Positions 10,153 through 32,317 of a DNA stretch of 64,000 nt are shown piece after piece. A program made the translations under genes and the position numbers. The notes under the pieces are model-generated. The model had not been told where the DNA came from and did no database searches. It was given only the letters and a program-made list of their open reading frames with translations. The DNA comes from Sarea resinae (taxonomy: Eukaryota), in NCBI GenBank assembly GCA_026026165.1, contig JAPEUD010000086.1, positions 1 to 64,000 on the forward strand, given 5' to 3'. The stretch's first letter is position 1. Every line of letters starts with the position of its first letter.

Positions 10153-10896
10153 TTGTATCAAACCTGCTCCGCTGTCTCCAAATTTATAAGATCACTTGAT
10201 AATCTTATCACATCCATGAGTTCATCCTCCTCTGACGGTCTTAGATTGATTGTCGGATGGGCTGAATCTGATAGTTCGATAATTGATAGTTCGACGCGCA
10301 ATATGCTTAACAGGAAGACCTGGAGCGGAATCATTATCGGAGAGGAAACGGATGACGTAATCCCTAAGCGGAGTGTACTGGCCAGTTTCACTGTCGGTGG
10401 CGAGACATACAGGGTCTTTGCCAGAACAGACGTTTAAAAGTTTTTAATCGCTTGGAAGAACGATAGTCGCTATAAAGGGGGTTGCTAAGTTCGAATTCTG
10501 GTCAAGGATATCACGATTCTAGTTGGTGTTCTAGAAGTTGCTCTAAAGACTAAGTCCGCCGACAAGGTTGCTAGTTCTGAGAAGATCTTTCACTCTTGGT
10601 TGTTTGATAAAATGAAAGCAGATGGACAAACAATGCCATGGTCCGACTTTGCTGAGCTAGAGGCTTCTAGGGCCGCTACTAATAGAGCTCCTCTGTCAAG
10701 TCAAAGGAAGTTCCGCGACCAAAGAGAGGAAAAAAAGGATCAAGTGCAACTCCAAGTGCGGGTAGTCCGCTCTAACACCAGGTCGGGGAGAATAACGATA
10801 GTTCCGACTCCGACGGCGAGGAGTCCTTTTCGATTGAGCCTATACACTCTGTCACAGGCAAAGAGATGGTGCACGACGGAATTATTCTATAGATAG
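10153..10896 (+). pseudogene. Interrupted reading frame, probable decayed hypothetical gene
   Basis: ORFs 10153..10437 and 10600..10896 share a frame and are linked by protein-like sequence containing two TAA stops. No recognisable domain. Confidence 0.4.
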
Positions 10897-15036: not shown

Positions 15037-16756
15037 CTACACGGGCGAAAGCCCATTGGAATCCGTCTTGAATCCATCCTTCTCCCGATCACTATCGCTC
15101 TTCATCGTCTCATCTCCCAGCTCGGTGCCCTCAAAGACAGCAGCGCCGCGGTACTCGTTGGCGGCATAGATCTCATCGGGCAGGACGGCGCGGTCGATCA
15201 TGGTCTCCGTAGGCGGGAAGCCATACGACAGCGCCAGATAGACGATAGCGGTGCCCGAGAAGCCCAGCAGCCAGCCGAACTGATACGGATGGACGCCGAC
15301 GCCGACGTGGATGTGGTGGTTGACCGAGTTGATGAAGCCGGGCAGATTCGGGGCGACGCCGACGACAAAGGCCGTGATGGCGCGCCAATTGATGCCGTGC
15401 CAGTAGCGGTAAATGCCGTCGGGCTGGTAGAGGGCCAGGGTGTCGTATTTGCGGCCGTGAATGAGCCAGTAGTCGAAGAGCATGATGGCGGCGATGGGGC
15501 CGAGGAAGACGCTGTAGGCAGACATGAAGTTGAGGAAATTGCCGGCCGACTCGAGAATCTTCCAGGGCACGAGGGCCCACGACAGGATGGCGCAGATGAG
15601 CTGGCCGCGGCGGATGTTGACGTACGACGGGAAGAGCGCGGCAAGATCGTTGGCGGCGCTGAGCGAGTTGGCCGAGATGTTGACGCCGAGAGAGGCCAGG
15701 GCGAACGAAAAGGCGCCAAAGAACCGACACGCGCGGCTGTCCCAGTGCGCGATCAAAGCCATGGGGTCCCACAGTAGGGTTCCGTATTTGACGGCGCCGG
15801 CGGACGAAGCGGCGATGCCGATAAAGGCTATAAAGGTGAAGACGATGGGCAGCATGGGCACGTAGAGCAATTGCCATTTGACGCTGACGTGAGAGTATCT
15901 CGAGAAGTCGGCCTGAACCGGTTTAGTAATCTAGTCAATTTCAAAAATCGCAATCTGCTTTGCTCACTTGGTTCACACTCAGGGTCGCGTAGTTTCCGAT
16001 GACCGAGGTCATGCTCGACAGGAAAGCCCAGCTGTAAGCGGATCCATGAATCGTAGCGTGTTGGTCAAAGATGTCTCCACCTCCACCGCCCGTGGACACG
16101 AATGCCCAGATGAGGATGGCGATCCAGGCGATCGGAACCACGATCGACTTGACCATGAAGAGCCATCTGAGATTGTTCGGGTGCATGTACAGGAACGGCA
16201 GCTGCAGCAGCCAGAAGATGACAAAGGCGACCATGGTGTTGGTCGTGATGCCTTGGTTGGCGGGGATGTGGTTGGGCAGCCTCAGGAAGCTGGGCCAGAT
16301 GGCTCCGAGCATGACGCGCACGGCATTGGCGCCGTTCATGGTCTGGATGGCGAACCAGAAGACGGCCAGGATGACGCGCGACACAATGGCGACGTAGGAG
16401 CCCCAGAAGCCCCAGCTCGCGCGCGACAGGACGGGGAACGAGGTGTGATGGATGACGCCCGTGGCGCCATTAAAGGAAATGACGATGGAGATGATGAAGA
16501 AGCCGACGGCGACGATGGCGAGCGATTCGCGGTAGGTCAGGCCGATGGCGATGATGCTGCTGGCGAACTGCCAGGTGGCCGCGTTGAAGGCGTCGGAGAT
16601 CCAGTAGGCGATGAAGCTCCAGACGCCCCATTTGCGATCCTTGGGCGGGATCGGGTCGAGGTCCTTGTTGGTCCATCGGCCGTGGCCCTCTGCAAAGGCC
16701 GAATGCGACTGTTCGACCTTGAGGCGATCCCACGACTTGGGGGGCGACCACTTCAT
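15037..16756 (-). CDS. NCS1-family nucleobase cation symporter (Fur4/Dal4-like uracil/allantoin permease); intron 15913-15967
   Basis: Motifs WTNKDLDP, YWISDAFN, RASWGFWGS, NQ|ADFSRY, NISANS, PWKIL; multiple hydrophobic helices. Confidence 0.95.
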
Positions 16757-16882
16757 GACGGCGAGGTGTATCGTAGGTGTGTTGTTGTTGATGGGCCAGA
16801 GTCAGGTAAGAACCAGAAGAGCACTTCATGCCCACCCATCGACCGACCTCTCTGGCATGGCTGCCATGGATGGGTAGGGCTG

Positions 16883-17047: not shown

Positions 17048-17506
17048 GCACGGGCTGGACCTATGAGAGAGCCGGGGCGTCCTCTCGATCAAGGATGCCA
17101 CGCGAGCTCACAGCTCAGCTGTAGGCCCATCTCTGTATCGCCATCATGCCATTTGATCGATAGCCAGACAAACAGTGCACGCCCTGTTGCCGCAATCGAG
17201 GTCAATTGATCTGGATCACGAGATCTCGACAATTGACACTGGAAGATTAGTCCGATGAAGCGCTTTCGTGGTGGTAGAGAGTAGGACGAGGGGAAGGGAG
17301 GCTGGACTAGCTGGGCGCTAAGATGGTGGAGCTGAACCCCTCGAACCCTGACTACGGTGGCCCAAGGGACGTCAGCATGTCCCGCTTTGTTTCCCCAGAG
17401 ACGCCATCACCGCCGGCGTCCCCTGGCCAGGGCAGCCCTGACCCCGCCATCCGCCGTCATCGACCTCAGCAAGATCAATTGATTGCGCCCATTGCGTCTC
17501 TCGAGC

Positions 17507-19558
17507 ATGGCCGAACCTCCCGAGAACCCCTTGCTCGCCGCTCTGCCTCCAGCCACCGACTACCTCACCTATCTCACCCTGCTCGAGTACAACCTCACGC
17601 CCGACCTTCTCCCGACCCTGCACGACGTCCTCCAGAACCAGGAGCTGACCACGAATATTGGCTGGGACCTGGTCCATCTGCTGCTTCCATTGCTCCCGGC
17701 GTCCGACCAATGTCTTCAGGATGTCGCCAAGCTGGGCAATCCGCGCGAAGTGGTCCTGAAGGTCACCGAGGCATTGCGAGAGCTCGACGTGGATGCTGCC
17801 CCGACACCTGCCTCCGAGGACCAGCTTGACAAAAAGACCTCAGCCCTTCCACAACCCATCCTGCAGTTCACCACATTGGTGTCTCTCCTCTCGATCCTTC
17901 ATTCCCGCATCAAGACGAAATACCCCAGCCGATTCCTCTCCACCTCACTCCAGGCCGTCCTCAAAGCCTACACGGAGATCCCCACACAAGAAACAACCTC
18001 TGCCGTCCTTCAGTTCGTCAAAGACATATCCGGCCACAAACGGCCATCATTACCCCCTCGCCTCAGCAACAGAGACATTCCGGCCGCGTCCTTGGAGTCT
18101 TCGGCTCCTGATCCCGAGGCCGCACCCGAGGCCCCCTCGGCGGAAGAGTCGGCTCTTCAGAACCGATTGCTTCAGTCATTCGTGACGCATGTGCTGGAGG
18201 ACTACGTGCTCTCGTTCGGCTCGGACGAAGATTACCCGGGGCTGGCTTGGACGAGTCGATTGCAGGAGCGGGCACACCCAGAGAAGATGGTGCCGGGAAA
18301 GGTTGAGTACGGTATCAAATTCACGCAGGACGAGTCCCTCAAAGCGAGGGAGGTCATGGTGGGCCAAATCAGAGTAAGTCTAGGCTGAACGTTCTCATTG
18401 GATTTTGCTGATCATTCAGTCCCTGGCGCGCGAAGTCGACGTCGACGCCGAGGAGCTTCTTCGGACTGTTAAGCAACCGGAGATTGAATCGCTGGCGCCG
18501 TCCGAAGAAGATGACCCGCCGCTTTCGGTGGAAGAGATTCCGCTTTCGAAGATTGGCGCCACTTTTCTCCTCTGCGCCCAGAAAGTCGCCGGCTCTCTCT
18601 TCGATTCGGAAGCGCCGGCCCCGACGGTCTCGATCTTCCCCGATCATGCCTTGATCGTCAAGAATCTGATTGGCGTAGAGGCCGGAGGAGGCATGAGCAG
18701 TGCGGGCACAGAGCCGCTGGCCGTCATCGATGCGGTGCTGGCATTAGGCATCATGGCGTTGAATGACGGGCGAATCGGCCAGCCGATCGATGACGAGGAG
18801 TTCACGCAATATCTCCAGGTATTTACCTCGTCGCTTGTAGCTGTTCTCTTGCTGATGCCTGAATGTAGACGCTCTCGCTGTTGGCCGCAAATACGCCGTC
18901 ATCTGCTCTGCGCTACCACGCCTACACGCTCACATCGGAGATTCTCCACTCTCACCCTTCAGATGTGGTCCGTCTCGCCTTCATCCGGGACACGCTCGAG
19001 CACTGTCCGTACGAAAACCTCAAAGCGTGCGCCGTCACCTGGACTAAGGACGAGATACTAGCGGCCAACAAAAACGGCCCGATCACAAGTAATCCCCAAA
19101 CCGACCCCTCCGTCTTCGCCACCCCCGTCGCCCTCGACACCCTCGCGCCCTTTCTTTTCCCGGCCCTCGACGCCGAGTACTCACTCTCAGGCGACAATAG
19201 CAGTAAGGACAACGACGCCAGCCCGCTCTCGGGGCAATGGGGCACGTTCAAGGCGCAGCTATCGCTCTACCTGACCACGCTGAACTTTTACTATCTCGTG
19301 CTCGCGTCACGGCCTCTGCATGCCGCGCTCGGCGTGCCGCATCTGCATGCGCGCCACGACGTCGCGGGCACGTATCTTGCGCCGCTGCGCCAGGCATCCA
19401 GCCGGTTCCGTGCGGCGCTGCGGCCCACAGAGGGAGATGGAGGTGGCGGGGGGTCCTTAGTCGGCGAGGAAGGCGGCGAGAGCGGCGCTGCGATGGCGGC
19501 GGCCGAGTTGGATCTTCTCGACGATGTTTTGGCGCGGATTGGGGGGGTGGAGTGGTAG
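17507..19558 (+). CDS. YAP-binding/ALF4/glomulin family protein (Ybp1/2-like); 3 exons
   Basis: N-terminus LPPATDYLTYLTLLEY..LTTNIGWDLV, GNPREV, RIKTKYPSRFL, DTLEHCPYENLK. Introns 18374-18419 and 18819-18868. Confidence 0.85.
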
Positions 19559-19868
19559 TGGTAGTGCAGTTAGTGCAGTGCTCGCAATGAGAGTGATAGT
19601 GCGGTGGTAGTGCCCTGGTAGTGGTAGTGGTGGCGGTAGTAGTAAGGGAGGATAAGAGACCACTTCTAGGACAACGATCAGGCTTGAAGAGTCGAAGTTA
19701 AATCCATCATCTCCTTTTCAAAAACATAGATGTGTGAGATGTCCTCGTTTGCTGAGAGATGCTGAGATGCAGCTCATAGCTAGACCAATAGAGAATCAGG
19801 TAAAAAGAAACAGATCGTCGATCGACAGATCAACACACCAATAAACAAACAAAACGATCCGCCATCTC

Positions 19869-19985
19869 TACCAACCAACCAACCAACCAATCAAGTATAT
19901 ATACAGCTCCCAAGCCAAGCCAACATAGCTAACTGCTCCATGCGAGAAACCCAACCCCCAACCCACAACCCACAACCCACAAACC
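19869..19985. repeat. (ACCA)n and (CCCACAA)n microsatellites
   Basis: Direct reading. Confidence 0.8.
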
Positions 19986-21518
19986 AAAAGGCCAGAAAAC
20001 CTTTCGCTCTAAGCTCTACTCCTCCCTCCTATCTCGCTCCTCATCTGTCGGGATCGGTACGCAGGTACGTAAGCTACCTCACGCTACCTAAACTACCTTA
20101 CCATTTTTGCTGAGGCGGGTAAGGGCCGGACTTTTTCTTCTTCTTTAAGGTTCTTCTTACTGTTCAAGTAGATGCAGGAAGCGGAAGCAGAAGGAGAGGC
20201 AGAAGCAGGAGTGGAAGCGGATATTATGCTGGCTTGGGAGATGAGAAGTCTGTCTCTTCTGCGGAGATGTGTGTTGGGCTAGATCTACACGTGTATATAG
20301 AGATAGATCTAGAGAAAGAGAGACTAGATTTGATAGACTAGACCAGACTACACCGGTCAAAGAGAGCCTAGGGAAGAAAAGGGAAAGTCGTGTACAAAAG
20401 AAAGTTCATAGATAAAATAGGTGATTCATCAAGTGAGTGAGTGATTCAGCAAGTGAGTGAGTAACTCAATAAATAAGATAACCTTGGCAGGTAAATAGGT
20501 AGGTAAGTGAAAAAGAGTGGAAGAAATAGAAGATGAAACAGAAAGAAAAGGAAACAGGGTTAGAAACAGAAGCCCTATCGCAGTTATCGTGATCCCCCCT
20601 CCCCCTCCTCCCCCCTTTCCACGCTTAGCGATTATCCACGTAGAGACATCTGTGTCCGAATCCCACGACGGGAGAGAGCTACTGCAAGCACATGCACGAC
20701 CCGTGTCCACGGACTCAAGGGTAAAGAAATAGAACCATCGCTTCCGGCCAACGAGTAATGCATCATTTCACCAAATCAACCAGATAGAAATACCCCCATT
20801 TGTTATTCGCGTTTGTCTCATCCGCCCGAGAATCCTCCAGGGTTCGTGCACGTGTCTTGGCTCATTTGAAGTGAGCTGAGGACGGCTGGTTTGGACTGCG
20901 AGTTGAGTTGAGCTGAGCTGTGTCGTCATTGTCGGGTCGCGAGTTGGCGGTTCGACAGGAGAGCTTGAGCCTGTTGGACGTTTGACGAAAGACGACAGAT
21001 GGCAGACGGCAGACGGCAGGGACCGGACTAGCATAGCGGAGGAAGAGCAAGAAGACGCAGGGAAAAGAGGATGACTCGTCGAGCTGGTGAGCGGAGGAAA
21101 AAGACCTGAAGACTTTCGGGCAATGGCATAGTCGGCAACAGTCGAGACGGGGCGGGCACGGAAGACAGAAAGACGAGTTTTGTTTTTGTGTTTTCTTTTG
21201 GTTGGCTGGCTGGTTGACTCGTCGGTCGATGGATTGATAAGAGTGCTGGCTGTTACTGAGTTGCTTGATTGGCAGGTGCAGGCGCAGGCGTAGGCGACGC
21301 GCAAGACAGTGACGAAGGCCATCTAGGCCGAGGAGAACGAGATCATGAACGAAATCGTCGACGCAGGAGAGCTAGACGTGTCGGACGTAGAGAAAGTTGC
21401 AGTCGTGGGTTTGAACAGAGACATGGACGCAGATGAGCAACAAGAAAGAGACGGAGACGTGGACGCAGACTCAGGATCCAGGAGTCGGACGTCGGATAGG
21501 GGCGGCGCTGTCAGGGCT

Positions 21519-21845
21519 CTACATGACAGAGCAGTTGGTGCCCTCGTAGCCGACTGTTGAGAGGGTATTGGTTAGCTTAGATTCTTCTAACGTGTATATA
21601 TCTCTTCAGGCTAGGGATCCTGATGATTCAAAGTGACACTCGACGACAAATTGAAGATCAATCTCATGTCATCTGTTTGTCGCGGCTCCTCAGGTCTCAA
21701 AAGACAAAAAATGCGCAACACCAAAAGAAAAAGGGGAAAACGTACTTCGGCGCTCAGCAACCTGCTCCGGGACTTCGTCCTGGGTGGCGCCTGTCTTGGT
21801 GACGGCGGCCACGGTGGGGTTGTTGAGAAGGGTAGTGGGAAGCAT
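21519..21845 (-). CDS. Putative a-factor-like (CAAX, prenylated) mating pheromone precursor, 44 aa: MLPTTLLNNPTVAAVTKTGATQDEVPEQVAERRIGYEGTNCSVM
   Basis: Exon 21845-21746, intron 21745-21554 (GTACGT...GCTAAC...CAG), exon 21553-21519 ending C-S-V-M-stop. 5'UTR intron 21935-21872 (GTACGT..ACTAAC..CAG). TATAAA at 22040-22035. Confidence 0.8.
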
Positions 21846-22034
21846 GATGAAAATTGGATTGGTTAGGGAGTCTGGTAATTGGTGAGAGGAGTGTTAGTTT
21901 ACCAGGAGAAAAGCGAGGGAAGGTGAGAGACGTACTGTTGATTGTAAAAATTGATAGAAGCAAGTAAAGTAGAGTGAAAGTGAATTGATTTGATGATGAT
22001 TCAAAAGATCCGATCCAGCGGATGCGAGGGCGTC

Positions 22035-22060
22035 TTTATAAGAACCCTGATGACTGAAAC
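22035..22060 (-). promoter_or_regulatory. TATA box and adjacent PRE-like TGAAAC of the small CAAX gene
   Basis: TATAAA on the minus strand at 22035-22040; TGAAAC at 22055-22060 on the plus strand. Confidence 0.5.
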
Positions 22061-23945
22061 GAGGCAGAAGTAAAAGATGGAGGATAGAGGCAACTTACGA
22101 CTGAGGTATGGAGAGAGAAGAGTAAGAAAGGGTTAGAGGTGGAGTGGTTAGATTGGGTTGGGTAGCGTCGGACTTCGAAGAGAGATGGATAGAGCTTGAG
22201 ACGTCGGCGAAGATGATAATGTTAGTGGAGGTGGATATGCAGACGATGGTATTGTTGTCGTGCTTACTATTGTAATTTGGTGGCTTTGTTTCTTTCTTTC
22301 TCTCTCGAGAGAGGCTTGAGGCTTGACCGTAAGGCTCAAGGCTAAGGCAAAGGGCTTAGGGCTAGAGCTGTCAGAGAAATTCGCAAGCTAGAATAAGAGG
22401 TCGATTTGTAATACCAGTAAGAGTTGCTTGATATTGTTGTGTATTTGCTTTCGAGATTCGTTCTTCTTTCTTTCTTCGAGAATGGCAAAGTTTAGTGGTT
22501 GGTAGATGTAAGAGAGAAGGAGAAAGAAAGAAGAAGCGGCCGTAAGACGGGTTTTTATACAGTGATATCGGGAGTTATGAGGGTGACGGGAGCGATGACT
22601 GTGATGAGTATGACGACTATATTGTGAGGAAATGTGAGGAAATGTGACGTGAATTGTAATGGGAGAACACAATCATCTCGATCACCGCGGCAGTCACAGC
22701 GATAAATCCCAAAGTGAAGTCTGAATGTGGCCGGAGTCGGCGTTTGAATCCTAAAAGATAGATATCACAAACACGCATGATAGAAGAGTAGATCACAACG
22801 CATCCGTACTATTGCCTGCGAGAGGTGAATAGTGCTCATTCATGAGTGGGAAAGTTCACACAGACAGATTTGCGCATGAGTCAAAGCCACGGCAGAATGG
22901 TCGTGCATCGCAGAAAAAAGCGCTTGGCAGTGGAATACTTCGAGAAGAAAGCATCGAAAAGAACAACCTATGGAGAAGAATACATCTCCAAACAATAGTA
23001 AGACCTCATTCTTTATCTCAACCACAGCCCGCCACAGCGCTCGGTCATTCCTCCTAAACCGAAAAGATAAAAAACAAAACAGCGTAGCTCTTACGCCCGA
23101 ATAACAAAGATCAACCCAAATTCCACGACCATGCAAATCCAGACGCAAAGTTATCCAGGTCGAGACCACGACGCCGGTGCCGGCGCTTACAAGACTCGAG
23201 ACAGATATCGAGTCAGAGCCACAAATCAAGCACCCGGAACATTATCAACTGAGCGGGAGAAAGAGGGAGAGGAAGAGAATGACGCATCATTGTAACAGAG
23301 ACACCGAACCCAAATGCCTCCACTTACCATGCATTTATTTGATCTATCAAAGACCTCACAGCCTCAAGGTGTTGATTCACCCTTACGAGCCAACCGATCA
23401 ACAATCAAACCGCCTGAAAATAACGCAACGTCAAGCAAGACCCTAATCCGAGCATGACCCAAGCCAGAGCCAGAGCCAAAGACAGAGACAGACTGCGAGG
23501 CCATCCTTCCCTGCGGAGGGTATACTGTATGCCCACCAACGGGCACAGCACGCAGCAAGACACCATCACGTCTTTGGCTTCAATTCCCGGAAAAAGGATA
23601 GTCCTATCATTTCCATCTTGTCGATTGGAACGGTGATAGGGACGTCGGATGGAGGTTGAACCGCTCTCTTAGTATTGTTCTCGACATCAACAATACGGAC
23701 GACATGACGGCGCGCTAAGGTTAGCTCGCCCCGCCACAACCGAGCTGGCGCGCGACCTGCAGACTACTCCGCGAAGGTGGGTTACTACTAGTACATATGG
23801 ATACGAGTATTCAAACATCACGAACAACAATAATCATCACCCTACAGAACAATAGCAGGGCGGAATCAATCGACCAGTCGACATGATAAGAATGAGCCCG
23901 GTAATCTCGTAGATTGCATAAATCGTCAACACCACGTAAGAGGAA

Positions 23946-26900
23946 TCAAGTATAGACCTCCTCAGTAAAAGCATTCAAGCCCAGCCCCTCGCGCGCGATA
24001 TCTTCTTTGATCAGGAACTGCAACGGCATCTCCACCAGCGTGCCTCGGACCGTGCCCAGCACCTCCTTGACCTCCTGGACCCCCTTCGGCCCCGCCGAGA
24101 ACTCCTCCGCGACGACGTGTCCCCATTTGTATGAAGATGTAGCTTTCGTCTCCTCTTTCTTCTCATCGCCGCCCTCCTTCTCCTTCTTCTCGTCCTTTTT
24201 CTCCTCCTCGCGGAAGAAGCGCCCGTAGTACTCGTCATACTCCTTCCACGTCGTGACTCCATCATACGGCACTGGATGGAAGACGCGAGCAAACGCATCC
24301 GTATTCGTCTTGGCAGTACCATTCCAGAGATTCAAGAATCCATCCGACAGGGGATCGACGACCGCCGCGTCCTCTGCCGAATGCAGGTCATACCTGTTCG
24401 GTACGCCGATTGGTTCCCAGTTCTCGTCAGGATGGTTCAGATCCTGTGGCCGAAGAAGCCCCAGATGTTTCCGGCATATCTGTCGTCGCAAAGTCGCCGC
24501 GAAGTGCGATGCTCTCCACGCCTGCCCGTTGATTCGCGATTCAAGCGGTGTTGGGTCCTGCACGATGATGGCAATCTCGGAGTCGTGGTCACCCAATTGG
24601 GAACGGTCATTGAGATTGGCAGACCCACAGATGACAATCCGGTCGTCCGCAATGAGAAGCTAAATCCGTCAGCATTGCATGAGAGCACGACCATGGCAGC
24701 ATGACAGTAAATACCTTTGAGTGAACATATAGCTCCTCGCTCACAAATGCATCGATCTCGGCAAATTCTCCATTGGTCCACGGGATCTTACTAACATCCT
24801 TGCCGTCCAGCATATAGCACTCACTGACGGTATCCCATCGGCCCGCATCGGGATTCTGGTCGAGTACATGTCCAGCGGCCTCTTGGTACTTCTGGTACTG
24901 CTTCTCCCCTTCGGCGTCCTCTCCCTGCCCGCCAAAGCCGGCACCGTAATGATTGTCATGTTGCTTGCGAGCCTCTTCGTAGTCGACGCCGCTCTGGTTC
25001 TCTGCTTCTTGCATGGTAGCACCAGAGTTGATCCGGTCGTAATTTCGCAGGTTATAGAAGCGGATATAATCAGCAGGATTGAAGCCCTCCTTCGCGATCG
25101 ACTCCATGATACTATGTCCGCCGCGATTGATCGAAAAATATTGAAACTCCATGATCGCCCGGGTGGCCAGACTATCATCGTTGCGCAAATCGCCAGCAAA
25201 CGCTGGTACCGCCGGAATGACCACGATGACCTTGTACTTCTCACCCGCCCTAGCTGCCGTCAAGATTCGATCGACAATAGCCCCGCCGATTCGATTCTTG
25301 ATGGGCTTTTGAGCATCACAGGTTGCAGTGATGAAGAATTGGTTTTCGATGTAGATGAAATGCTGGCTGTTCTTGATGACTTCAATGTAGGCGTTGGCGA
25401 TTGAATGCTAGCTGAATCAGGACCGACCTCTCCAAAAGTAAAAGACATACCTCGGTCGGGATTCCGTGACTCCATTTCGCACAGCTCCTGACAATCTGGC
25501 ATTCGATGCCGTCTCGGCTGGTACTTCGATGGGATCCTTCATATTGATCCTGGACGTAGCGTAATCCCTCTGCGACTCGATCTCTCACCATTCCTCTGAG
25601 AGTACCGTCGCCATGCCTCGGGACATGACTGCCTGAACCAGAGCCATCGTCTACGGTCTCGTGGGTTTGAACACTGCCATCGGCTGGATTTTGCTGCTGT
25701 GAGCCAGGAGGGTTTCCTCCAGCAGATTGCTGCTACTTGAGTTAGCTAGAGAAAGGACGTCGTCCAGAAAACCATACCTGAGTTTCATTCTCATCCGTCT
25801 CCACGAAGCTGAGACGCGAATATCTATCGTCCTTTCTGACCGCATACTTGTCGTCGTAGATGAAATTCCATCTCTCGACAAAGTGCGCCTGCAAGTCTTG
25901 CACGACAGGGCCCTTCAAGCTTAACGATACATCAGACCAGCCCATCCGGGCATTAGTCTTCCTGTCTAACTTGTTGTCTTGATAATTGACGACATCCTGA
26001 AAGTCCATTATCCTAGCGTTATTGAAGTCTTGTCCGGGGAAGATGATCTCTTCCAGGTTTTCCGGATGGGCATCAGCAATGGGATGCTGGTTCATATCCC
26101 ACCGTCCGAAACAGAGATCGAGCCCTCCCATGAATGCGATATGGCCATCGATAAGGAGCAACTTCTCATGATGAGCCCAATATAGAACCACATCTTCGTT
26201 CGTCCCATAAATAGCCTTCAAAGTATTATCTGGTAACTCGGAAGCGGTCTTGGCGTTTAAGGACAAGTTCTTGATCGACGAGATGAAAGAAGCCTGAAGT
26301 GTTTTGGCATCGGGTAGATGGTCCGGATGGCGGAATACGCAGATGTTCCGATGGAGGTCCTCCAATGCATGCTTCGTGTGAGCAGAAGAGACTGTCACGG
26401 GCTCCATCAGTATGTTTTGAGCTTCGATCTCTTCAAGAGACGCAAATGCCGCGTCGATCCCCATCCGACACAACAAGGATGTCATCGAATCGCTCCACGG
26501 AACAAGCGAATGAAGATAGTCGGGCAGCAGCGGAGAAAGATACTTACGGGTCAGGGCCTGCGTGACTTCTTTGTAGACAATGATGTTGACCTTGACGCCT
26601 CGCTCAGCGGCAGCGAGAAGCATGCGGTCCACGCGATACTGTTCGTTCTTGGCCGGTGGTCGACGAAGGTAAAGCTCCGGCGTCAGCCACCCTGGAATTG
26701 ATCAGCTTGGAGCCTAGAAGGGCCGCGAATACCTACAGTCGAGAATCCAGATCGACTCAGAGGCCGTCTCCAAAGCCTTGGCCACAGCCGCGAAATATCC
26801 ACAGCCATCGACAAACCATTTGATGTCATTTCCGCCCCGTGGAAAAGCAAAACTGCCGAATCGATGATGGGTGTGGTCATGAGCACCATCGCTACATTGG

Positions 26901-27407
26901 CCGCCTGAATGGGTGTGGCTATGAGTGGTTTTGTCCTTGTTGAGCTTCTCGTTGAGGTCCGAGGCTAGAGTGTAGACCGTCTCGTGGGCCTTTTCGCGCA
27001 CCTTGTTGAAGAGGGAAGACATGGTCGATGATCCTTGAGCCGGTGATGCTCTTGACGGTGGGTTCTGATCGTTCAGCTGAGGTTGATACTGTTCGGTGAC
27101 ACCTCGGTTCTCCTGCTGTGTGATACGTGTGAGATTGAGAGACCATTCGCTTCCCATGGAAGAGGGATTGGCTTACCACGGTGTGATGCTGGGGAGACTG
27201 AGGAGGGTTGAGATCAGGATATTCACCATAGGCGTAGAGATCCTGGTCGTGGGAGTCTGAAAGTTCCGTCTGCTGCTGCCACTGTCTCTGAAGTCGGCGA
27301 ATGGCATTGCCAAACAGGCTCCCCTGATCCCGCTCTTGTCCAGATGCGTCATCTCGGTCGGCATGGAAGTCACCATATGCTAGATGGTCGTCCTGGTCGT
27401 CAGCCAT
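23946..27407 (-). CDS. Phospholipase D (two HKD motifs), multi-exon
   Basis: KWFVDGCGYF, WILD|WWLTPELYLRRP, WAHHEKLLLIDG..GGLDLCFGRWD, IYIENQFF, LYVHSK|LLIADD..GSANLNDRSQLGDHDSE. Start may be 27407 or the downstream ATG near 27022. Confidence 0.95.
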
Positions 27408-28536: not shown

Positions 28537-31500
28537 TCAATCACCCATGACGTCGTCCTCATCATCCGCATCCTCGTCGTCTGCGTTCCTGGCCGCCGCG
28601 GCATTTTCGTCCTTCTCCTCGGCCTCCTCATCATGATCCCCGCCTTCGTCCTCGTCATCCATGTCGGCATCGACGATCAATTCGCGAGCAGCGAGGTCTT
28701 CCTCACCGCCTTCCGAGGCAGAAGCAGCGGAAGTGACACGGATAGCATCGCCAATGTCCTCGTCCTCGTCCTCGTCACTATCATCCTCGACGACAATCTC
28801 CTTGGACTTATGACTCCGGCCTCCATCAGCAGCAGCAGTAGCCTTGGCCTTCGCTCGGACTCTCGTCGACGGTTTCTTGGCCTTCGGCTCATCGAGATAT
28901 GCAATAATCTCCTTGAAGCTATGGCCCAGTCGCCCCCGATTCCGTGCTAGTCTCTCCTTCAATTGCCCCTTGAGCGGAGGAGACGAATCAATGACCTTGG
29001 CGATGATAGCGAACACGAGTTTTCCGCTCAGCTGGCAGAGCGCTCGTTCAGCCTCGAGCATGTCGCGCTGGCGCTCGTGCTCATCGACACCGTCGTCGTC
29101 GTCATCGGAGTCTTCGGCATCGGACTCGTCATCGGCGGGTTCGTCTTCGTCGCCGGCTTCAAGCACGCGGTGCGATTTCTTGGCGTATGTCTTTTCGACC
29201 GCGGCGAAGATGGACGTGATGGTAGTCTGGAGGTCTGGGGGAATCTCCTTGACCAGGTCTTGGACATGCAAGTTTCCAGCCTGGTCGGCCTCTTCTGGCT
29301 GCTGCGACGGCTTGGGTCGCGCCTGGCGGAACGTAGAGAATAGCGTGTAGATATCCAGCAGCGTATCAACGGTCGATAATCTCAGTTGATCCATGCCGCC
29401 CGTGCGCTTCTCGAGGATAGGTCGAAGAGCGGCCACGAAGGCCTCGCGACGTTCTTGAAGGTCGTTCAAGTCGCGCTCCGGGATGGGTTTTCCGGAAGCG
29501 AGCAAAGACTGAAGCGATCGGGCTTTCCACATAAAGTAGACAATCAGACATCTCTGGGCCATTGAAACGAGCATATCCTCGACGTCTTCGATCTCAGCTT
29601 CGTTGCCCGTCAGATCGTCCGAAGTGCCTCTTTTGGTGATCTGGACCAATATGGTGAAAGCGTCTGACGGCGACGTGTCGTTCTTCTTCCTCTTATTATT
29701 CGATGCAGCACTCGGCACCGCCTCGAAGGTCTCGATACAATCGGAAATCTTCGCCAAGTTGTTGATTCGTCGCAGATTGTTGGCCAGTTCGGTGGCATCG
29801 CCAAGATTGAAGTTGCCGCGGATGCTGAGATCCTTGCGCCTGGAAAACCCCTGCAACACGCCCATCGTATCCTCCCATAGCAACTGTACTTTGCCTTCAG
29901 TGACCTCTTCCAATTCTTCGAAGCTCTTTGCATGCAAGAGCGCTGCGCTAGCCTCGACGAGGACGTTTTGATCCGCGTGCGTGAGGAACTGCTTGTTGAT
30001 ATCGTCTAGGAGATCCGAATACGCCGTCGAGTCCTGGCGGAGCTCCTCGAACACGTCGAGATTGAGCACATGTTCCAGGCGGAGCACGACGGAGGCTGCT
30101 TGAGGAACGGCGCCAAACTTGTTCAGGAGCCTCGGTATCATCTGCGCTAGGTGACGAGCGGCCGTTTCTTGAATTTCGAGCGATTCTTGCTTCCGCGCCT
30201 TTGTCTTTTTCTTTCCCACTTCTTGCTCTCCACCGGATGTCAGCCGAAGCTTGACAGCCTCGTTCAGGACCTCAAGGAGGATAGTCTCTTCTTTTTCGTC
30301 GAGTTTACATTCGATCCTCAATGCCATCTCCGGATCATCGGCGCTAGCATTTTCCGTCGTCGAGGAATGGTCGAAGAGTAAATAACCAGCCAAGACCTCC
30401 CATTCGCGAACTTCAGGGATCTTGTCGTACAAGGCTTGAGCAGCAAGAGAAAAACGGGATTCTACTCCCGAAGCAACGAGAATATCGCTCGTGCCATGGG
30501 CGCCCCGCTGGATCTGACTCGGCAGTTCCTCTCGATCTTCGGAATCATAAGACTGGAGCACTTCGACCAGACACTTGAGCTTCAACCAAGAAATTCGAGG
30601 ACTGTCGAAATCTTCTTCGCCTTCGCGAGCCAGAGCCTCATCCAGAGCTTCCTCGCCGCCCACCTCTTCGAGTTTCGCTTGGAAGAGATCGTTGATATTC
30701 TCGGCAAAGAAACCCACCACTGCTTTCCGGACACGCGCTTCCGAGTCGAATAGCAGCCTCCCGACGACGTCGATGTCATCTGGCTCCAGCAGGCCGGCTT
30801 CCCGCAACGTGTCCAAGAGTTCCACGGTTGAAGAACGACAGGCTGGATCGGCGTCTCGGGCTGCCATCTCCACCAGGCGTGGTCGAAAGCGTTCCGTAAA
30901 GGTGCGTAAGCCAGCAATGTTGTCCTTGTTCTTGAACAGCTTCTGGAGCTGCTTGACAACCTCTAATCGAGTAGGCGCCGAAGTGTCCGACAAGACCCAG
31001 CCCATGTAACGCAGATACTGCCCTTCGAAGAAGAAGTCCGGAAACGCAAGGATCCAATGGCCGAGCGCCTGCATGCAATCCGCCCGAATCTTCGGGTCAA
31101 CATCTCGGTATCTATGAACAAAAACCGTGTCGAAGATGTCCCGGATAGTCGCGTCCACAGTCTCTCTCTTCCTGGCCCCTTCATCAATCTTGGCTTGGAG
31201 AGAGGCAACTCTTGCTTTGTTCACTCGCGCCTTCTTCTTTTCACCTTCCTGCTGGCGGAGTGTCTTCGCCGACGTTTCTTCTATCGCCCGTCCGACATCA
31301 CATAACGCGCTGACAATGGCAAGCGAGATGACAGTAGCGGTGTGCCTGAAGGGACGGATAGCAGACGATGACATGGTAGTCACCCAGACTTGAATGTTCT
31401 CAATAAGTGCAAGGTCGTCGTACAGGGCCGAGGTCGCGTCCATGGTCGCAACGAGGGAGACGAAGAAACCCATCAGAGTGGCTCGAAAAGGCGCATGGCC

Positions 31501-32317
31501 TCTCGCCTTCGAGATGAGGGGATACTCGGTGATTTTTTGCTGGGCGAACAAATGTTAGCTGATAGGTCTGGAGAATGAGTCGAAGTGACGTACAGCTTGA
31601 TACTCGTCCTGTAAATCCGCCAATCTACCCGTGACATTGTCTGGGTCTTCGATATCATGAATCGTCACCTCCAGATCACATCCAGTACACCGAAGAACGA
31701 AGTTGATGAGATCCGTCATGGCAATCGCGTTGTGCGCTTCGTAGCTATTCAGCCACTGTGCAGCCACTGCATCGACGGATTGACCAGTAGCAAAGACCTC
31801 CGCTACAGACAAATGCTAGTCAGCCATACTAGTCAGTCGTGAGATCATGCGAAGGGTGCAGCCCACCATAGAGTCCGCCAATAGCTTCAGCCGCAGCCGC
31901 AGCCTGTCCACGTGGCTTTCTAGGCTTTCGCGTCCCGTTAATGGCAGGCCTCATGGCCAGCGTCTTCTGAGACGCATTGGCCGTCCTGGGTCTCTTCGCG
32001 ACGGGCTTCGACTGGGTCTTTCTAGCGCGCGCCGCCTTCCTCTTCTTCTCCTTTATTTCCTCCTCATCCACGTCGCTATCCTCGCTCTCCGAGCTGTCGT
32101 CCTCGGACGCGTCTTCATCTTCGACCTCATTCTCATCGTCACCGGGTTGCTGAGCGCGTTTTCGTTTGGATTTGCTATTGTTGAGACCGAAATCGGTGGC
32201 CGCCAGTATTTCGGGCTTCTTGATCACGCGTCCGGATTTGCGCCGAGTGGCCGCGTTGTCGCTGTGGTCGGACGATGCTGGGTCGGAGAGCTCCATGCTT
32301 GAGAGACGGGCAGGCAT
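28537..32317 (-). CDS. SCC3: Cohesin subunit Scc3/SA/STAG (Psc3/Irr1 orthologue); 3 exons
   Basis: STAG domain RPFRHTATVISL, VFVHRYRDVDPKIR, YLRYMGWVLSD, RFRPRLVEMA. Acidic N- and C-termini. Start at 32317 or 32296. Confidence 0.95.

What the first reader, a model, noticed from the sequence alone, without database searches (positions are those of the whole stretch)
21519..22060. Hidden spliced 44-aa CAAX gene: candidate a-factor-like mating pheromone precursor
Seen in sequence: the ORF track misses this gene because it is split. On the minus strand there is a TATAAA, a 5'UTR intron, an ATG at 21845, and a 192-nt intron with consensus GTACGT/GCTAAC/CAG signals. Splicing gives MLPTTLLNNPTVAAVTKTGATQDEVPEQVAERR-IGYEGTN-CSVM*. 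Established: ascomycete a-factor-type precursors are tiny, lack a signal peptide, end in CAAX (commonly CxVM), and are routinely missed by annotation. Inference: this is the organism's lipopeptide pheromone, with a mature peptide of roughly IGYEGTNC(farnesyl)-OMe. The RR dibasic site directly before it, and the intron separating pro-region from mature peptide, are unusual and could indicate different processing.
Basis: partly seen in the sequence, partly recalled or inferred. Interest (0 to 1): 0.9.

Follow-up and report, generated by a model that had tools for sequence, protein, structure and literature searches.

The report
Intron-split lipopeptide mating pheromone gene
A tiny two-exon gene hidden between two ordinary genes of a resin-dwelling ascomycete encodes a 44-residue peptide with a lipid-attachment signal at its end, and matching genes at the same spot in other fungi show it is most likely the fungus's unannotated a-factor-type mating pheromone.

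Summary
On the minus strand, ATG 21845, a 192-nt intron (21745-21554, GTACGT/GCTAAC/CAG) and an 11-codon second exon give a 44-aa peptide ending CSVM-stop. It is the only such model in the window. Simulated windows gave a mean of 0.02.

The main evidence is comparative. Of 77 metagenome loci fetched through the neighbouring phospholipase D gene, 19 carry a small gene downstream of PLD on the same strand. These genes share four features:
- a short pro-region beginning M-x-P;
- a basic residue just before the junction;
- a phase-1 intron;
- a roughly 10-residue exon ending C-x-(V/I)-M-stop.

Exon 2 is the best conserved segment: 78-94% nucleotide identity against about 50% in the flanks. One locus, and several database proteins including two from Penicillium, carry tandem units like the published h-type precursors.

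A neighbouring protein is 100% identical to a Sarea resinae (Sareomycetes) MAG protein.

My reading is a real, unannotated a-type lipopeptide pheromone precursor, a new member of a known kind. Similar genes are published for Sordariomycetes and Leotiomycetes, and one is cited for Aspergillus fumigatus. Expression, prenylation and receptor activation were not tested.

The parts
22284..22290 (-). AACAAAG, an HMG-box-like core, 445 nt upstream of the ATG
   Evidence: (A)ACAAAG or CTTTGTT lies at -320 to -535 in all 8 independent promoter groups. AACAAAG was seen 4 times against 0.55 expected. The test was post hoc, so this is weak support.
22035..22040 (-). TATAAA box, 195 nt upstream of the ATG
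21872..21935 (-). Candidate 5'UTR intron (64 nt; GTACGT, CTAAC, CAG)
   Evidence: Similar 5'UTR intron candidates occur in 6 of 9 representative loci. Splicing is not shown.
21746..21845 (-). Exon 1 of the CDS: start codon, 33 codons of pro-region and the first base of the split codon. It contains the conserved EVP(E/Q) motif.
21747..21752 (-). Arg-Arg codons directly before the exon junction (predicted N-terminal cleavage site)
   Evidence: A basic residue (R or K) occupies this place in all 19 related loci (L026).
21554..21745 (-). Phase-1 coding intron, 192 nt (GTACGT, GCTAAC, CAG)
   Evidence: The same phase and position occur in all relatives. There is no Rfam match and folding is unremarkable.
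21519..21553 (-). Exon 2: the mature-peptide region GYEGTN, the CAAX box CSVM (codons 21533-21522) and stop TAG (21521-21519)
23946..27172 (-). Upstream neighbour: phospholipase D gene. Its 3' end is 2.1 kb from the ATG, on the same strand. It is the synteny anchor.
17483..19558 (+). Convergent downstream neighbour: YBP1/2-like gene (PF08568)

Best explanation
This is a real, unannotated protein-coding gene for an a-type (a-factor-like) lipopeptide pheromone precursor of a Sareomycete, most likely Sarea resinae.

Inferred mechanism, by analogy with yeast and Sordariomycete a-factors:
1. The 44-aa cytosolic precursor, which has no signal peptide, is farnesylated on Cys41 of CSVM. A terminal Met directs farnesyl rather than geranylgeranyl.
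2. The SVM tripeptide is removed and the new C-terminus is methyl-esterified.
3. The 33-residue pro-region is cut off at the conserved basic site (Arg-Arg here). This leaves roughly an 8-residue farnesylated peptide.
4. That peptide is exported by an ABC transporter and read by a Ste3-type receptor on the partner.

Shown here: the gene model, its improbability by chance, its conservation of position, structure and C-terminal exon in relatives, and its kinship with multi-unit (h-type-like) precursors.

Inferred: transcription and splicing, every processing step, and the mating role.
For: 1. Gene model and chance.
- The model is exact and the only one of its kind in the window. Simulations gave 0.02 per window.
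- ATG 21845 is the first AUG after the TATA box and has A at -3.

2. Synteny.
- 19 of 77 PLD-anchored loci have a gene of the same build on the PLD strand. The count is 18 of the 44 loci with at least 2 kb downstream.
- The gene lies 0.9-1.7 kb after PLD in 15 of these loci and 6-7 kb after it in 4. In the window it is 2.1 kb.
- In 10 of the loci the convergent YBP-like gene follows, as in the window.
- In about 0.9 Mb of loci scanned on both strands, every spliced C-x-(V/I/L/M)-M-stop model found was one of these genes.

3. Shared anatomy.
- All have a phase-1 intron directly after a basic residue.
- Exon 2 is exactly 32 nt in all 18 single-unit loci and 35 nt in the window.
- Ends are CTVM, CCVM, CCIM, CVVM or CSVM.

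4. Selection.
- Exon 2 is 78-94% identical between groups whose flanks and introns are 47-67% identical.
- Within groups the exons are 94-100% identical and the flanks 77-100%.

5. Exon 1 similarity.
- tblastn of the window peptide hits the exon 1 of L031 and L018 over residues 1-32, with E 0.002 and 0.003.
- An exon-1 HMM built without the window ranks the window's exon 1 first of 2258 six-frame pieces.

6. Match to published a-type features.
- The published features are length under 100 aa, a T/S-rich N-terminus, a GY motif and CTVM/CSVM ends (PMC10569646 passages; PMC3068285 sections 5 and 8).
- The longest hydrophobic run is 4 residues, so there is no signal-peptide-like core.

7. Link to h-type precursors.
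- Locus L026 has five tandem units separated by Lys behind the same intron at the same position.
- Database proteins, two of them from Penicillium, have the same unit design.
- This ties the set to the published h-type or multi-unit a-factor precursors.

8. Promoters. HMG-like (A)ACAAAG cores lie at -320 to -535 in all 8 promoter groups (post hoc).
Against: - Sequence similarity of the window copy is weak on its own. The exon-1 HMM hit has E 0.19. The tblastn E-values came from a run without composition correction or low-complexity masking.
- The window's mature region is the outlier of the set. It has one extra codon, its GY is displaced four residues from the Cys, and it lacks the P-G of the consensus. 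Its exon 2 is only 51-66% identical to relatives.
- 26 of the 44 loci with at least 2 kb downstream of PLD show no such gene. These include the two loci closest to the window by PLD identity, L001 and L002.
- For the Leotiomycete putative a-factor, Wilson et al. found no mating-type-dependent expression and themselves doubt a mating role (PMC10569646 passages).
- The receptor, transporter and processing genes could not be checked, because no genome is held.
Confidence: 0.72

Rival explanations
1. It is a real, conserved, prenylated small peptide, but not a partner-recognition pheromone. It would be a lipopeptide used for other signalling, such as hyphal adhesion, quorum-type or developmental signals, and expressed regardless of mating type.
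For: Conservation and anatomy are as for the main reading. Wilson et al. report that the Leotiomycete putative a-factor is expressed independently of mating type and is unusually conserved between species. They discuss co-option to non-mating roles (PMC10569646 passages).
Against: Mature units differ between the groups found here while the pro-region varies freely, as expected of recognition peptides. Multi-unit relatives tie the set to HPP1, which is required for male fertility in Trichoderma reesei (PMC3068285 abstract). Promoters carry HMG-like cores (weak).
Confidence: 0.17
2. It is a decaying copy. The locus is orthologous to the pheromone gene of relatives but no longer makes a working pheromone in this lineage.
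For: The window's mature exon is the most divergent: an extra codon, a displaced GY, and 51-66% identity against 78-94% among the other groups. Its intron is about twice as long, 192 nt against 76-129 nt. One relative, L016, has GTG in place of the start codon, so loss does occur.
Against: The start codon, both splice sites, the branch point, the frame, the farnesyl-type CAAX, the stop and the TATA box are all intact. The window is also the most distant lineage in the set (PLD identity at most 68%), so divergence is expected.
Confidence: 0.07
3. It is a chance open frame in a non-coding or merely intron-bearing transcript.
For: No protein homologue of the readthrough exon-1 query was found among 5.8 billion clusters. 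The exon-1 HMM hit is not significant on its own.
Against: Simulations gave 0.02 chance models per window, and this model sits in the one 4.3-kb gap where relatives have the gene, on the right strand. Intron phase, the basic residue and the CAAX are all shared. There is no Rfam family and no unusual fold in the intron.
Confidence: 0.04

Closest known systems
Putative a-factor pro-pheromone of Leotiomycetes (Botrytis cinerea BCIN_13g03330 family; Wilson et al. 2023, PMC10569646; passages read)
   Same: A short unannotated precursor with a T/S-rich N-terminus, a GY motif near the C-terminus and ends of mostly CTVM, also CSVM, CVVM and CIVM. The C-terminus is conserved and the N-terminus variable. 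Sareomycetes and Leotiomycetes both belong to leotiomyceta.
   Different: The published lengths are 45-64 aa. The window gene is 44 aa and the relatives found here are 23-42 aa. The passages I read did not describe gene structure or neighbours, and the sequence files are PDFs or PPTX I could not read. Orthology, a shared intron and PLD linkage are therefore untested.
Sordariomycete a-type precursors (mfa-1, ppg2, MF1-1, Mf2/1; as described in Schmoll et al. 2010, PMC3068285 sections 5 and 8)
   Same: They are 20-30-aa precursors beginning MSPS/MPST, with an aromatic residue before the Cys, a C-(V/I)-(V/I)-M end and a long 3'UTR. Several relatives found here begin MSPS and end likewise.
   Different: The Sordariomycete genes lie next to cyanate lyase (section 8), whereas this one lies next to PLD. 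Huntiella a-factor genes have no introns (PMC10182648 passage), whereas here a phase-1 intron splits the pro-region from the mature part.
h-type (hybrid) or multi-unit a-factor precursors: HPP1 of Trichoderma reesei, and those of Fusarium and Huntiella (PMC3068285; PMC10182648)
   Same: The unit ends G-C-(T/S)-V-M and a basic residue or Kex2-like site lies at unit borders. L026, P0121, P0146 and the two Penicillium proteins are built this way. The window has the dibasic site and one unit.
   Different: The window gene has a single unit, so it does not meet the repeat criterion of the class. It is a single-unit relative of multi-unit forms.
PpgB, the a-factor-like pheromone of Aspergillus fumigatus (Krappmann et al. 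2025, Curr Biol 35:2414; only the citation seen in PMC11787670 and PMC13712828)
   Same: It is an a-factor-like pheromone found late in a non-Sordariomycete class. The Penicillium multi-unit proteins found here are from the same order.
   Different: The paper is not held. I saw no sequence, gene structure or locus, so no comparison was possible.
Saccharomyces cerevisiae a-factor (MFA1/MFA2) biogenesis pathway (recalled; titles and abstracts listed)
   Same: A short cytosolic precursor, C-terminal CAAX processing, N-terminal trimming and non-classical export.
   Different: From recall, the yeast N-terminal cuts are not at basic residues and the yeast genes have no intron. No sequence similarity was tested.

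Membership tests
a-type (a-factor-like) lipopeptide pheromone precursors of Pezizomycotina | Very short precursor (under 100 aa) without a signal peptide | tested here: met
   The precursor is 44 aa. The longest hydrophobic run is 4 residues. No signal-peptide predictor was run.
a-type (a-factor-like) lipopeptide pheromone precursors of Pezizomycotina | CAAX box at the extreme C-terminus, with X directing farnesylation | tested here: met
   CSVM is followed by TAG. CSVM is among the ends listed by Wilson 2023.
a-type (a-factor-like) lipopeptide pheromone precursors of Pezizomycotina | T/S-rich variable pro-region and a GY or aromatic motif near the Cys | tested here: met
   7 of the 44 residues are Thr. 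GY is present but lies four residues further from the Cys than in the relatives.
a-type (a-factor-like) lipopeptide pheromone precursors of Pezizomycotina | Conserved in relatives, with the C-terminal (mature) part conserved above the N-terminal part | tested here: met
   19 of 77 loci carry the gene. Exon 2 is 78-94% identical between groups against 48-65% for exon 1 and about 50% for flanks. The window copy is weaker at 51-66%.
a-type (a-factor-like) lipopeptide pheromone precursors of Pezizomycotina | Significant sequence similarity to a characterised member | not testable with these tools
Pfam has no match for exon 1.
a-type (a-factor-like) lipopeptide pheromone precursors of Pezizomycotina | Transcribed and spliced, with expression tied to mating type or the sexual stage | not testable with these tools
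   No sequencing run could be listed for this stretch.
a-type (a-factor-like) lipopeptide pheromone precursors of Pezizomycotina | Farnesylated and methyl-esterified product that activates a Ste3-type receptor and is needed for fertilisation | not testable with these tools
   This needs experiments. The genome is not held, so even the presence of the receptor could not be checked.
h-type (hybrid) pheromone precursors (Schmoll et al. 2010) | Several copies of the unit ending in a CAAX-like motif, one of them at the C-terminus | tested here: not met
   The window gene has one unit. The relative L026 has five.
h-type (hybrid) pheromone precursors (Schmoll et al. 2010) | Basic or Kex2-type site bordering the unit | tested here: met
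   Arg-Arg lies directly before the junction. A basic residue holds this place in all relatives.

The most novel reading that the evidence does not exclude
The PLD-linked, intron-split gene is one ancestral a-pheromone locus shared across several classes of leotiomyceta: Sareomycetes, unnamed metagenome lineages, and possibly Eurotiomycetes and Leotiomycetes. At this locus, single-unit precursors and multi-unit 'h-type' precursors interconvert by tandem duplication inside exon 2. The invariant basic residue at the exon-1 end and between units marks a mono- or dibasic cleavage step that defines the N-terminus of the lipopeptide. Such a step is not part of the yeast a-factor pathway. If so, an intron-aware, synteny-anchored search would recover the 'missing' a-pheromone in classes that cannot be crossed in culture, such as lichen-forming fungi.
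Probability: 0.35. Interest if true: 0.65.

Novelty: new member of a known kind. Interest (0 to 1): 0.5.

Why it matters
a-factor-type pheromone genes are so short and variable that they went unfound outside Sordariomycetes until 2023 (Leotiomycetes) and 2025 (A. fumigatus). They are still absent from nearly all annotations.

This finding does three things.
- It gives a class with no described pheromone, Sareomycetes, a concrete candidate and a predicted mature peptide that can be synthesised and tested.
- It supplies a practical handle for finding the gene elsewhere: a PLD neighbour, a phase-1 intron after a basic residue, and a 32-nt last exon.
- It shows single-unit and multi-unit precursors at the same locus, which bears on how h-type pheromones arise.

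It is not a new kind of system.

Tried and rejected
- RNA evidence: no RNA holder was listed for window 21300-22200.
- Whole genome: none is held. STE3, STE6, RAM1/2, STE14, STE24 and MAT genes and second copies could not be sought.
The 51-aa readthrough of exon 1 found no protein sharing three 5-residue words, among proteins of 28-90 aa only.
- blastn of the whole 4.3-kb intergenic region against the 77 loci gave no hit at E 1e-3. The relatives are too far apart for DNA-level alignment.
- A profile of exon-2 rows against the 5.8-billion set gave 1 hit among 216 candidates.
- The same profile against 1.84 billion representatives gave 37 hits at E up to 1e-3. The profile kept all 54 positions of the repetitive first row, so it favours repeats. 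I read 20 of the shorter hits. About 9 are multi-unit CAAX-type precursors and the rest are unrelated repeat proteins. Single-unit relatives cannot reach significance with about 10 conserved residues.
- Earlier findings of this scan: nothing by place, words or sequence.
- A snoRNA or other ncRNA host gene was considered. Rfam gave only two matches far below gathering scores, and the intron fold has z -0.66, so I rejected it.
- A G-protein gamma subunit or other known CAAX protein was considered and rejected on length and lack of any Pfam match (exon 1 only).
- Krappmann et al. 2025 is not held, by DOI or PubMed id. Two searches for text describing PpgB found only citations.
- The sequence supplements of Wilson 2023 are PDF or PPTX and unreadable here. 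The four xlsx files hold no peptide sequences.
- A search for pheromone precursor, Lecanoromycetes, a-factor and CAAX listed no paper combining Lecanoromycetes with the other terms among the 20 shown.

Full report
WHAT IS THERE

- TATAAA is at 22040-22035.
- A 64-nt intron candidate in the leader is at 21935-21872, with GTACGT, CTAAC and CAG.
- ATG is at 21845 in the context A at -3.
- 33 codons follow.
- A GTACGT donor comes after the first base of codon 34.
- The coding intron is 192 nt, with GCTAAC 21 nt before its CAG.
- The second exon, 21553-21519, completes codon 34 and adds ten codons and TAG.

A script that joined the two exons from the window file gave a 135-nt frame of 44 residues ending CSVM-stop. 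No ATG lies between the TATA box and 21845, with or without the leader intron. The ORF list at 60 aa does not show the gene.

IS IT MORE THAN CHANCE?

I wrote a finder that requires:
- an ATG-initiated frame;
- a GTRNGY donor;
- a CTRAY branch 8-45 nt from an AG;
- a frame that closes with C-x-(V/I/L/M)-M-stop.

On both strands of the 64-kb window it returns this model and nothing else. In 100 first-order Markov simulations of the window the mean was 0.02, and 2 of 100 had at least one. If any C-x-x-x-stop is allowed, the window has 3 loci and the simulations a mean of 5.55. The signal is therefore the farnesyl-type CAAX together with consensus splice sites.

SURROUNDINGS

The gene sits in a 4.3-kb gap.
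- Upstream on the same strand is a phospholipase D gene, with PLDc motifs and its stop at 23946.
- Downstream and convergent is a YBP1/2-like gene (PF08568, E 3.6e-80 and 1.1e-30) ending at 19558.
- A 184-aa frame at 20771-21322 below the gene has no Pfam family.
- Rfam finds nothing near gathering score in 19500-24000, and the coding intron folds no better than shuffles (z -0.66). I see no sign that the transcript is merely a host for a small RNA.

ORGANISM

The 1005-aa cohesin-subunit frame at 28540-31554 is 100% identical to an NCBI protein named 'MAG: hypothetical protein M1819_006980 [Sarea resinae]'. The next best hits are 60-62% identical and come from Pycnora, Candelaria, Glutinoglossum, Trichoglossum and Geoglossum. 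NCBI taxonomy places Sarea resinae in class Sareomycetes within leotiomyceta.

The small gene appears not to be annotated. A query holding all of exon 1 found no protein of 28-90 aa sharing three words with it in the 5.8-billion-cluster collection, which does hold that MAG's cohesin protein.

RELATIVES

No genome or RNA run was available, so I used the PLD C-terminal 237 aa to fetch related loci from metagenome contigs. This gave 77 loci with PLD identity of 31-84% by best segment. The full-length matches reach at most 68%.

DNA of the intergenic region does not align to any of them. However, tblastn with the spliced peptide hit L031 and L018 over residues 1-32, starting at a Met, about 1.4 kb downstream of PLD on the PLD strand. 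The E-values were 0.002 and 0.003, from a run without composition correction.

Reading L018 showed the same build: a leader intron, an ATG, 32 codons ending in Arg, a phase-1 GTATGT intron with CTAAC, and a 32-nt exon ending CCVM-stop.

Systematic scans then found the gene in 19 of the 77 loci. By amount of downstream sequence, the counts are:

| Sequence downstream of PLD | Loci | Loci with the gene |
|---|---|---|
| at least 1 kb | 49 | 19 |
| at least 2 kb | 44 | 18 |

The 19 loci fall into seven sequence groups:

| Group | Loci | End of last exon | Note |
|---|---|---|---|
| 1 | 8 | QPGYGCTVM | |
| 2 | 2 | SPGYSCCVM | |
| 3 | 1 | SPGFGCCIM | |
| 4 | 4 | SPGFGCCIM | 6-7 kb from PLD |
| 5 | 2 | SPGGGCTVM | |
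| 6 | 1 | SPGGGCVVM | |
| 7 | 1 (L026) | five tandem units QNGYGC(T/S)(L/I/V)M | units separated by Lys |

In the scan of all loci on both strands, every spliced C-x-(V/I/L/M)-M model was one of these genes. The only other hits were two unspliced frames inside the PLD gene itself.

Ten loci also have the YBP-like gene convergent downstream, the arrangement of the window.

SHARED ANATOMY (L026)
- The intron is phase 1 in every locus and follows a basic residue directly: R in five groups, K in two, R-R in the window. In L026 a Gly lies between the K and the junction.
- The last exon is exactly 32 nt in all 18 single-unit loci and 35 nt in the window.
- The precursors are 23-42 aa in single-unit relatives and 44 aa in the window.
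- They begin M-(S/Q/L/E)-P.
- Several, including the window, carry EVP(E/Q) a few residues before the basic site.
- One locus uses a GC donor (L010) and one has GTG for the start codon (L016).
- Leader-intron candidates occur in 6 of 9 representative loci.

SELECTION
- Between groups, exon 2 keeps 78-94% nucleotide identity, exon 1 48-65%, introns 58-67% and 500-nt flanks 47-56%.
- Within groups, the exons are 94-100% identical and the flanks 77-100%.
- The window copy is the outlier. Its exon 2 is 51-66% identical to relatives against 41-51% for flanks.
- An exon-1 HMM built from seven relatives without the window ranks the window's exon 1 first among 2258 six-frame pieces of the window, but at E 0.19.

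Homology of the window copy therefore rests on the combination of position, strand, intron phase, basic site, CAAX and weak sequence similarity. Sequence alone would not carry it.

WIDER FAMILY

A profile of the last-exon rows found one protein in the 5.8-billion set. This is P0121, with four units ending SPGGGC-x-(V/L)-M, each followed by K.

The same profile run over 1.84 billion representatives gave 37 hits at E up to 1e-3. Of the 20 short ones I read, about nine are multi-unit precursors of the same design, with units separated by K or R. The others are unrelated repeat proteins.

Two of the multi-unit proteins are NCBI proteins of Penicillium glandicola and P. coprophilum, named 'unnamed protein product' and 'hypothetical protein'. 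The unit design thus reaches Eurotiomycetes.

WHAT IS KNOWN

Schmoll et al. 2010 (PMC3068285; abstract, sections 5 and 8 read):
- They describe Sordariomycete a-type precursors with a conserved aromatic-C-(V/I)-(V/I)-M end, long 3'UTRs and a cyanate-lyase neighbour.
- They define h-type precursors, such as HPP1, with three (L/I)GC(S/T)VM units and Kex2 sites. HPP1 is needed for male fertility.

Wilson et al. 2023 (PMC10182648; passages read):
- They describe multi-unit a-factors in Huntiella, comparable to those of Fusarium and Trichoderma.
- They state that those genes have no introns.

Wilson et al. 2023 (PMC10569646; passages read):
- They report a putative a-factor in at least 111 Leotiomycete species.
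- It is 45-64 aa, mostly ends CTVM but also CSVM, has an S/T-rich N-terminus and carries a GY motif in 87 species.
- They call it the first outside Sordariomycetes.
- They also report expression independent of mating type and doubt a mating role.

Krappmann et al. 2025 on A. fumigatus was seen only as a citation. The paper is not held.

A search combining pheromone precursor, Lecanoromycetes, a-factor and CAAX showed no paper joining Lecanoromycetes to the other terms among the 20 listed. I found nothing on Sareomycetes in these searches.

HOW IT MOST LIKELY WORKS

Shown: a conserved gene for a short peptide with a farnesyl-type CAAX and a conserved C-terminal module after a basic site.

Inferred by analogy with a-factor biogenesis:
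1. Farnesylation of the Cys.
2. Removal of SVM.
3. Methyl-esterification.
4. Removal of the pro-region at Arg-Arg.
5. ABC-transporter export.
6. Reading by a Ste3-type receptor.

The multi-unit relatives make the basic site the likely unit border.

How internal units of multi-unit forms would get a free CAAX end is unknown.

Promoter hint: (A)ACAAAG or its complement lies at -320 to -535 in all eight independent promoter groups.
- AACAAAG in sense was seen 4 times against 0.55 expected.
- ACAAAG was seen 8 times against 1.92 expected.
- CAAAG in the -650 to -300 window was seen 11 times against 4.08 expected.

From recall, this resembles HMG-box sites of mating regulators. The window and motif were chosen after looking, so I count it as weak support.

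VERDICT

The gene is a new member of a known kind. It adds some modestly new points:
- a first candidate for Sareomycetes;
- a PLD synteny anchor;
- a constant phase-1 intron after a basic residue;
- single-unit and multi-unit forms at one locus.

Interest 0.5.

Noticed in passing
L026:2449-2739 (+): At the same place downstream of PLD, behind the same phase-1 intron, the last exon encodes five tandem units QNGYGC(T/S)(L/I/V)M separated by Lys. This is a multi-unit (h-type-like) precursor that is positionally equivalent to the single-unit genes.
   Followed up: partly
P0140 and P0153: Two Penicillium proteins, annotated 'unnamed protein product' and 'hypothetical protein', consist of repeated SPGGGC-x-VM-type units separated by K or R. 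They look like unrecognised multi-unit a-type pheromone precursors of Eurotiomycetes.
   Followed up: partly
L016:12188-12190 and L010:12275-12280: Within eight otherwise near-identical loci, L016 has GTG instead of the ATG start of the small gene, and L010 has a GC (GCAAGT) donor instead of GT. These may be a lost or variant allele and a GC-AG intron.
   Followed up: no
L017, L043, L044, L045 (gene at about 16.7-18.1 kb; PLD match ends at 10684): In one group the small gene lies 6-7 kb rather than about 1.5 kb downstream of PLD, so something has been inserted between them. I did not examine the intervening DNA.
   Followed up: no
L018:11630-11660, L022 and L017/L043 promoters (about -420 to -535 from the ATG): Three groups whose flanks are otherwise at random-level identity share a pair of CAAAG elements about 22 nt apart, in a conserved context (taCAAAGctc ... 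caCAAAG). This is a likely promoter footprint.
   Followed up: partly
window 15037-16801 (-): Two adjacent frames match the two halves of the purine/cytosine permease family PF02133 (E 5.5e-51 and 2e-50). This looks like one gene split by an intron or a frame change near 15930-15944.
   Followed up: no
window 20771-21322 (-): A 184-aa ATG frame directly below the pheromone gene has no Pfam family and an S/T/P-rich composition. It may simply lie in a long 3'UTR, which is typical of a-type pheromone genes according to Schmoll 2010.
   Followed up: partly
L001 and L002 (closest PLD relatives, 67-68% identity): Neither shows the small gene within 6-10 kb downstream of PLD, nor a YBP-like gene. The PLD linkage is therefore broken in the lineages nearest to the window among those sampled.
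   Followed up: partly
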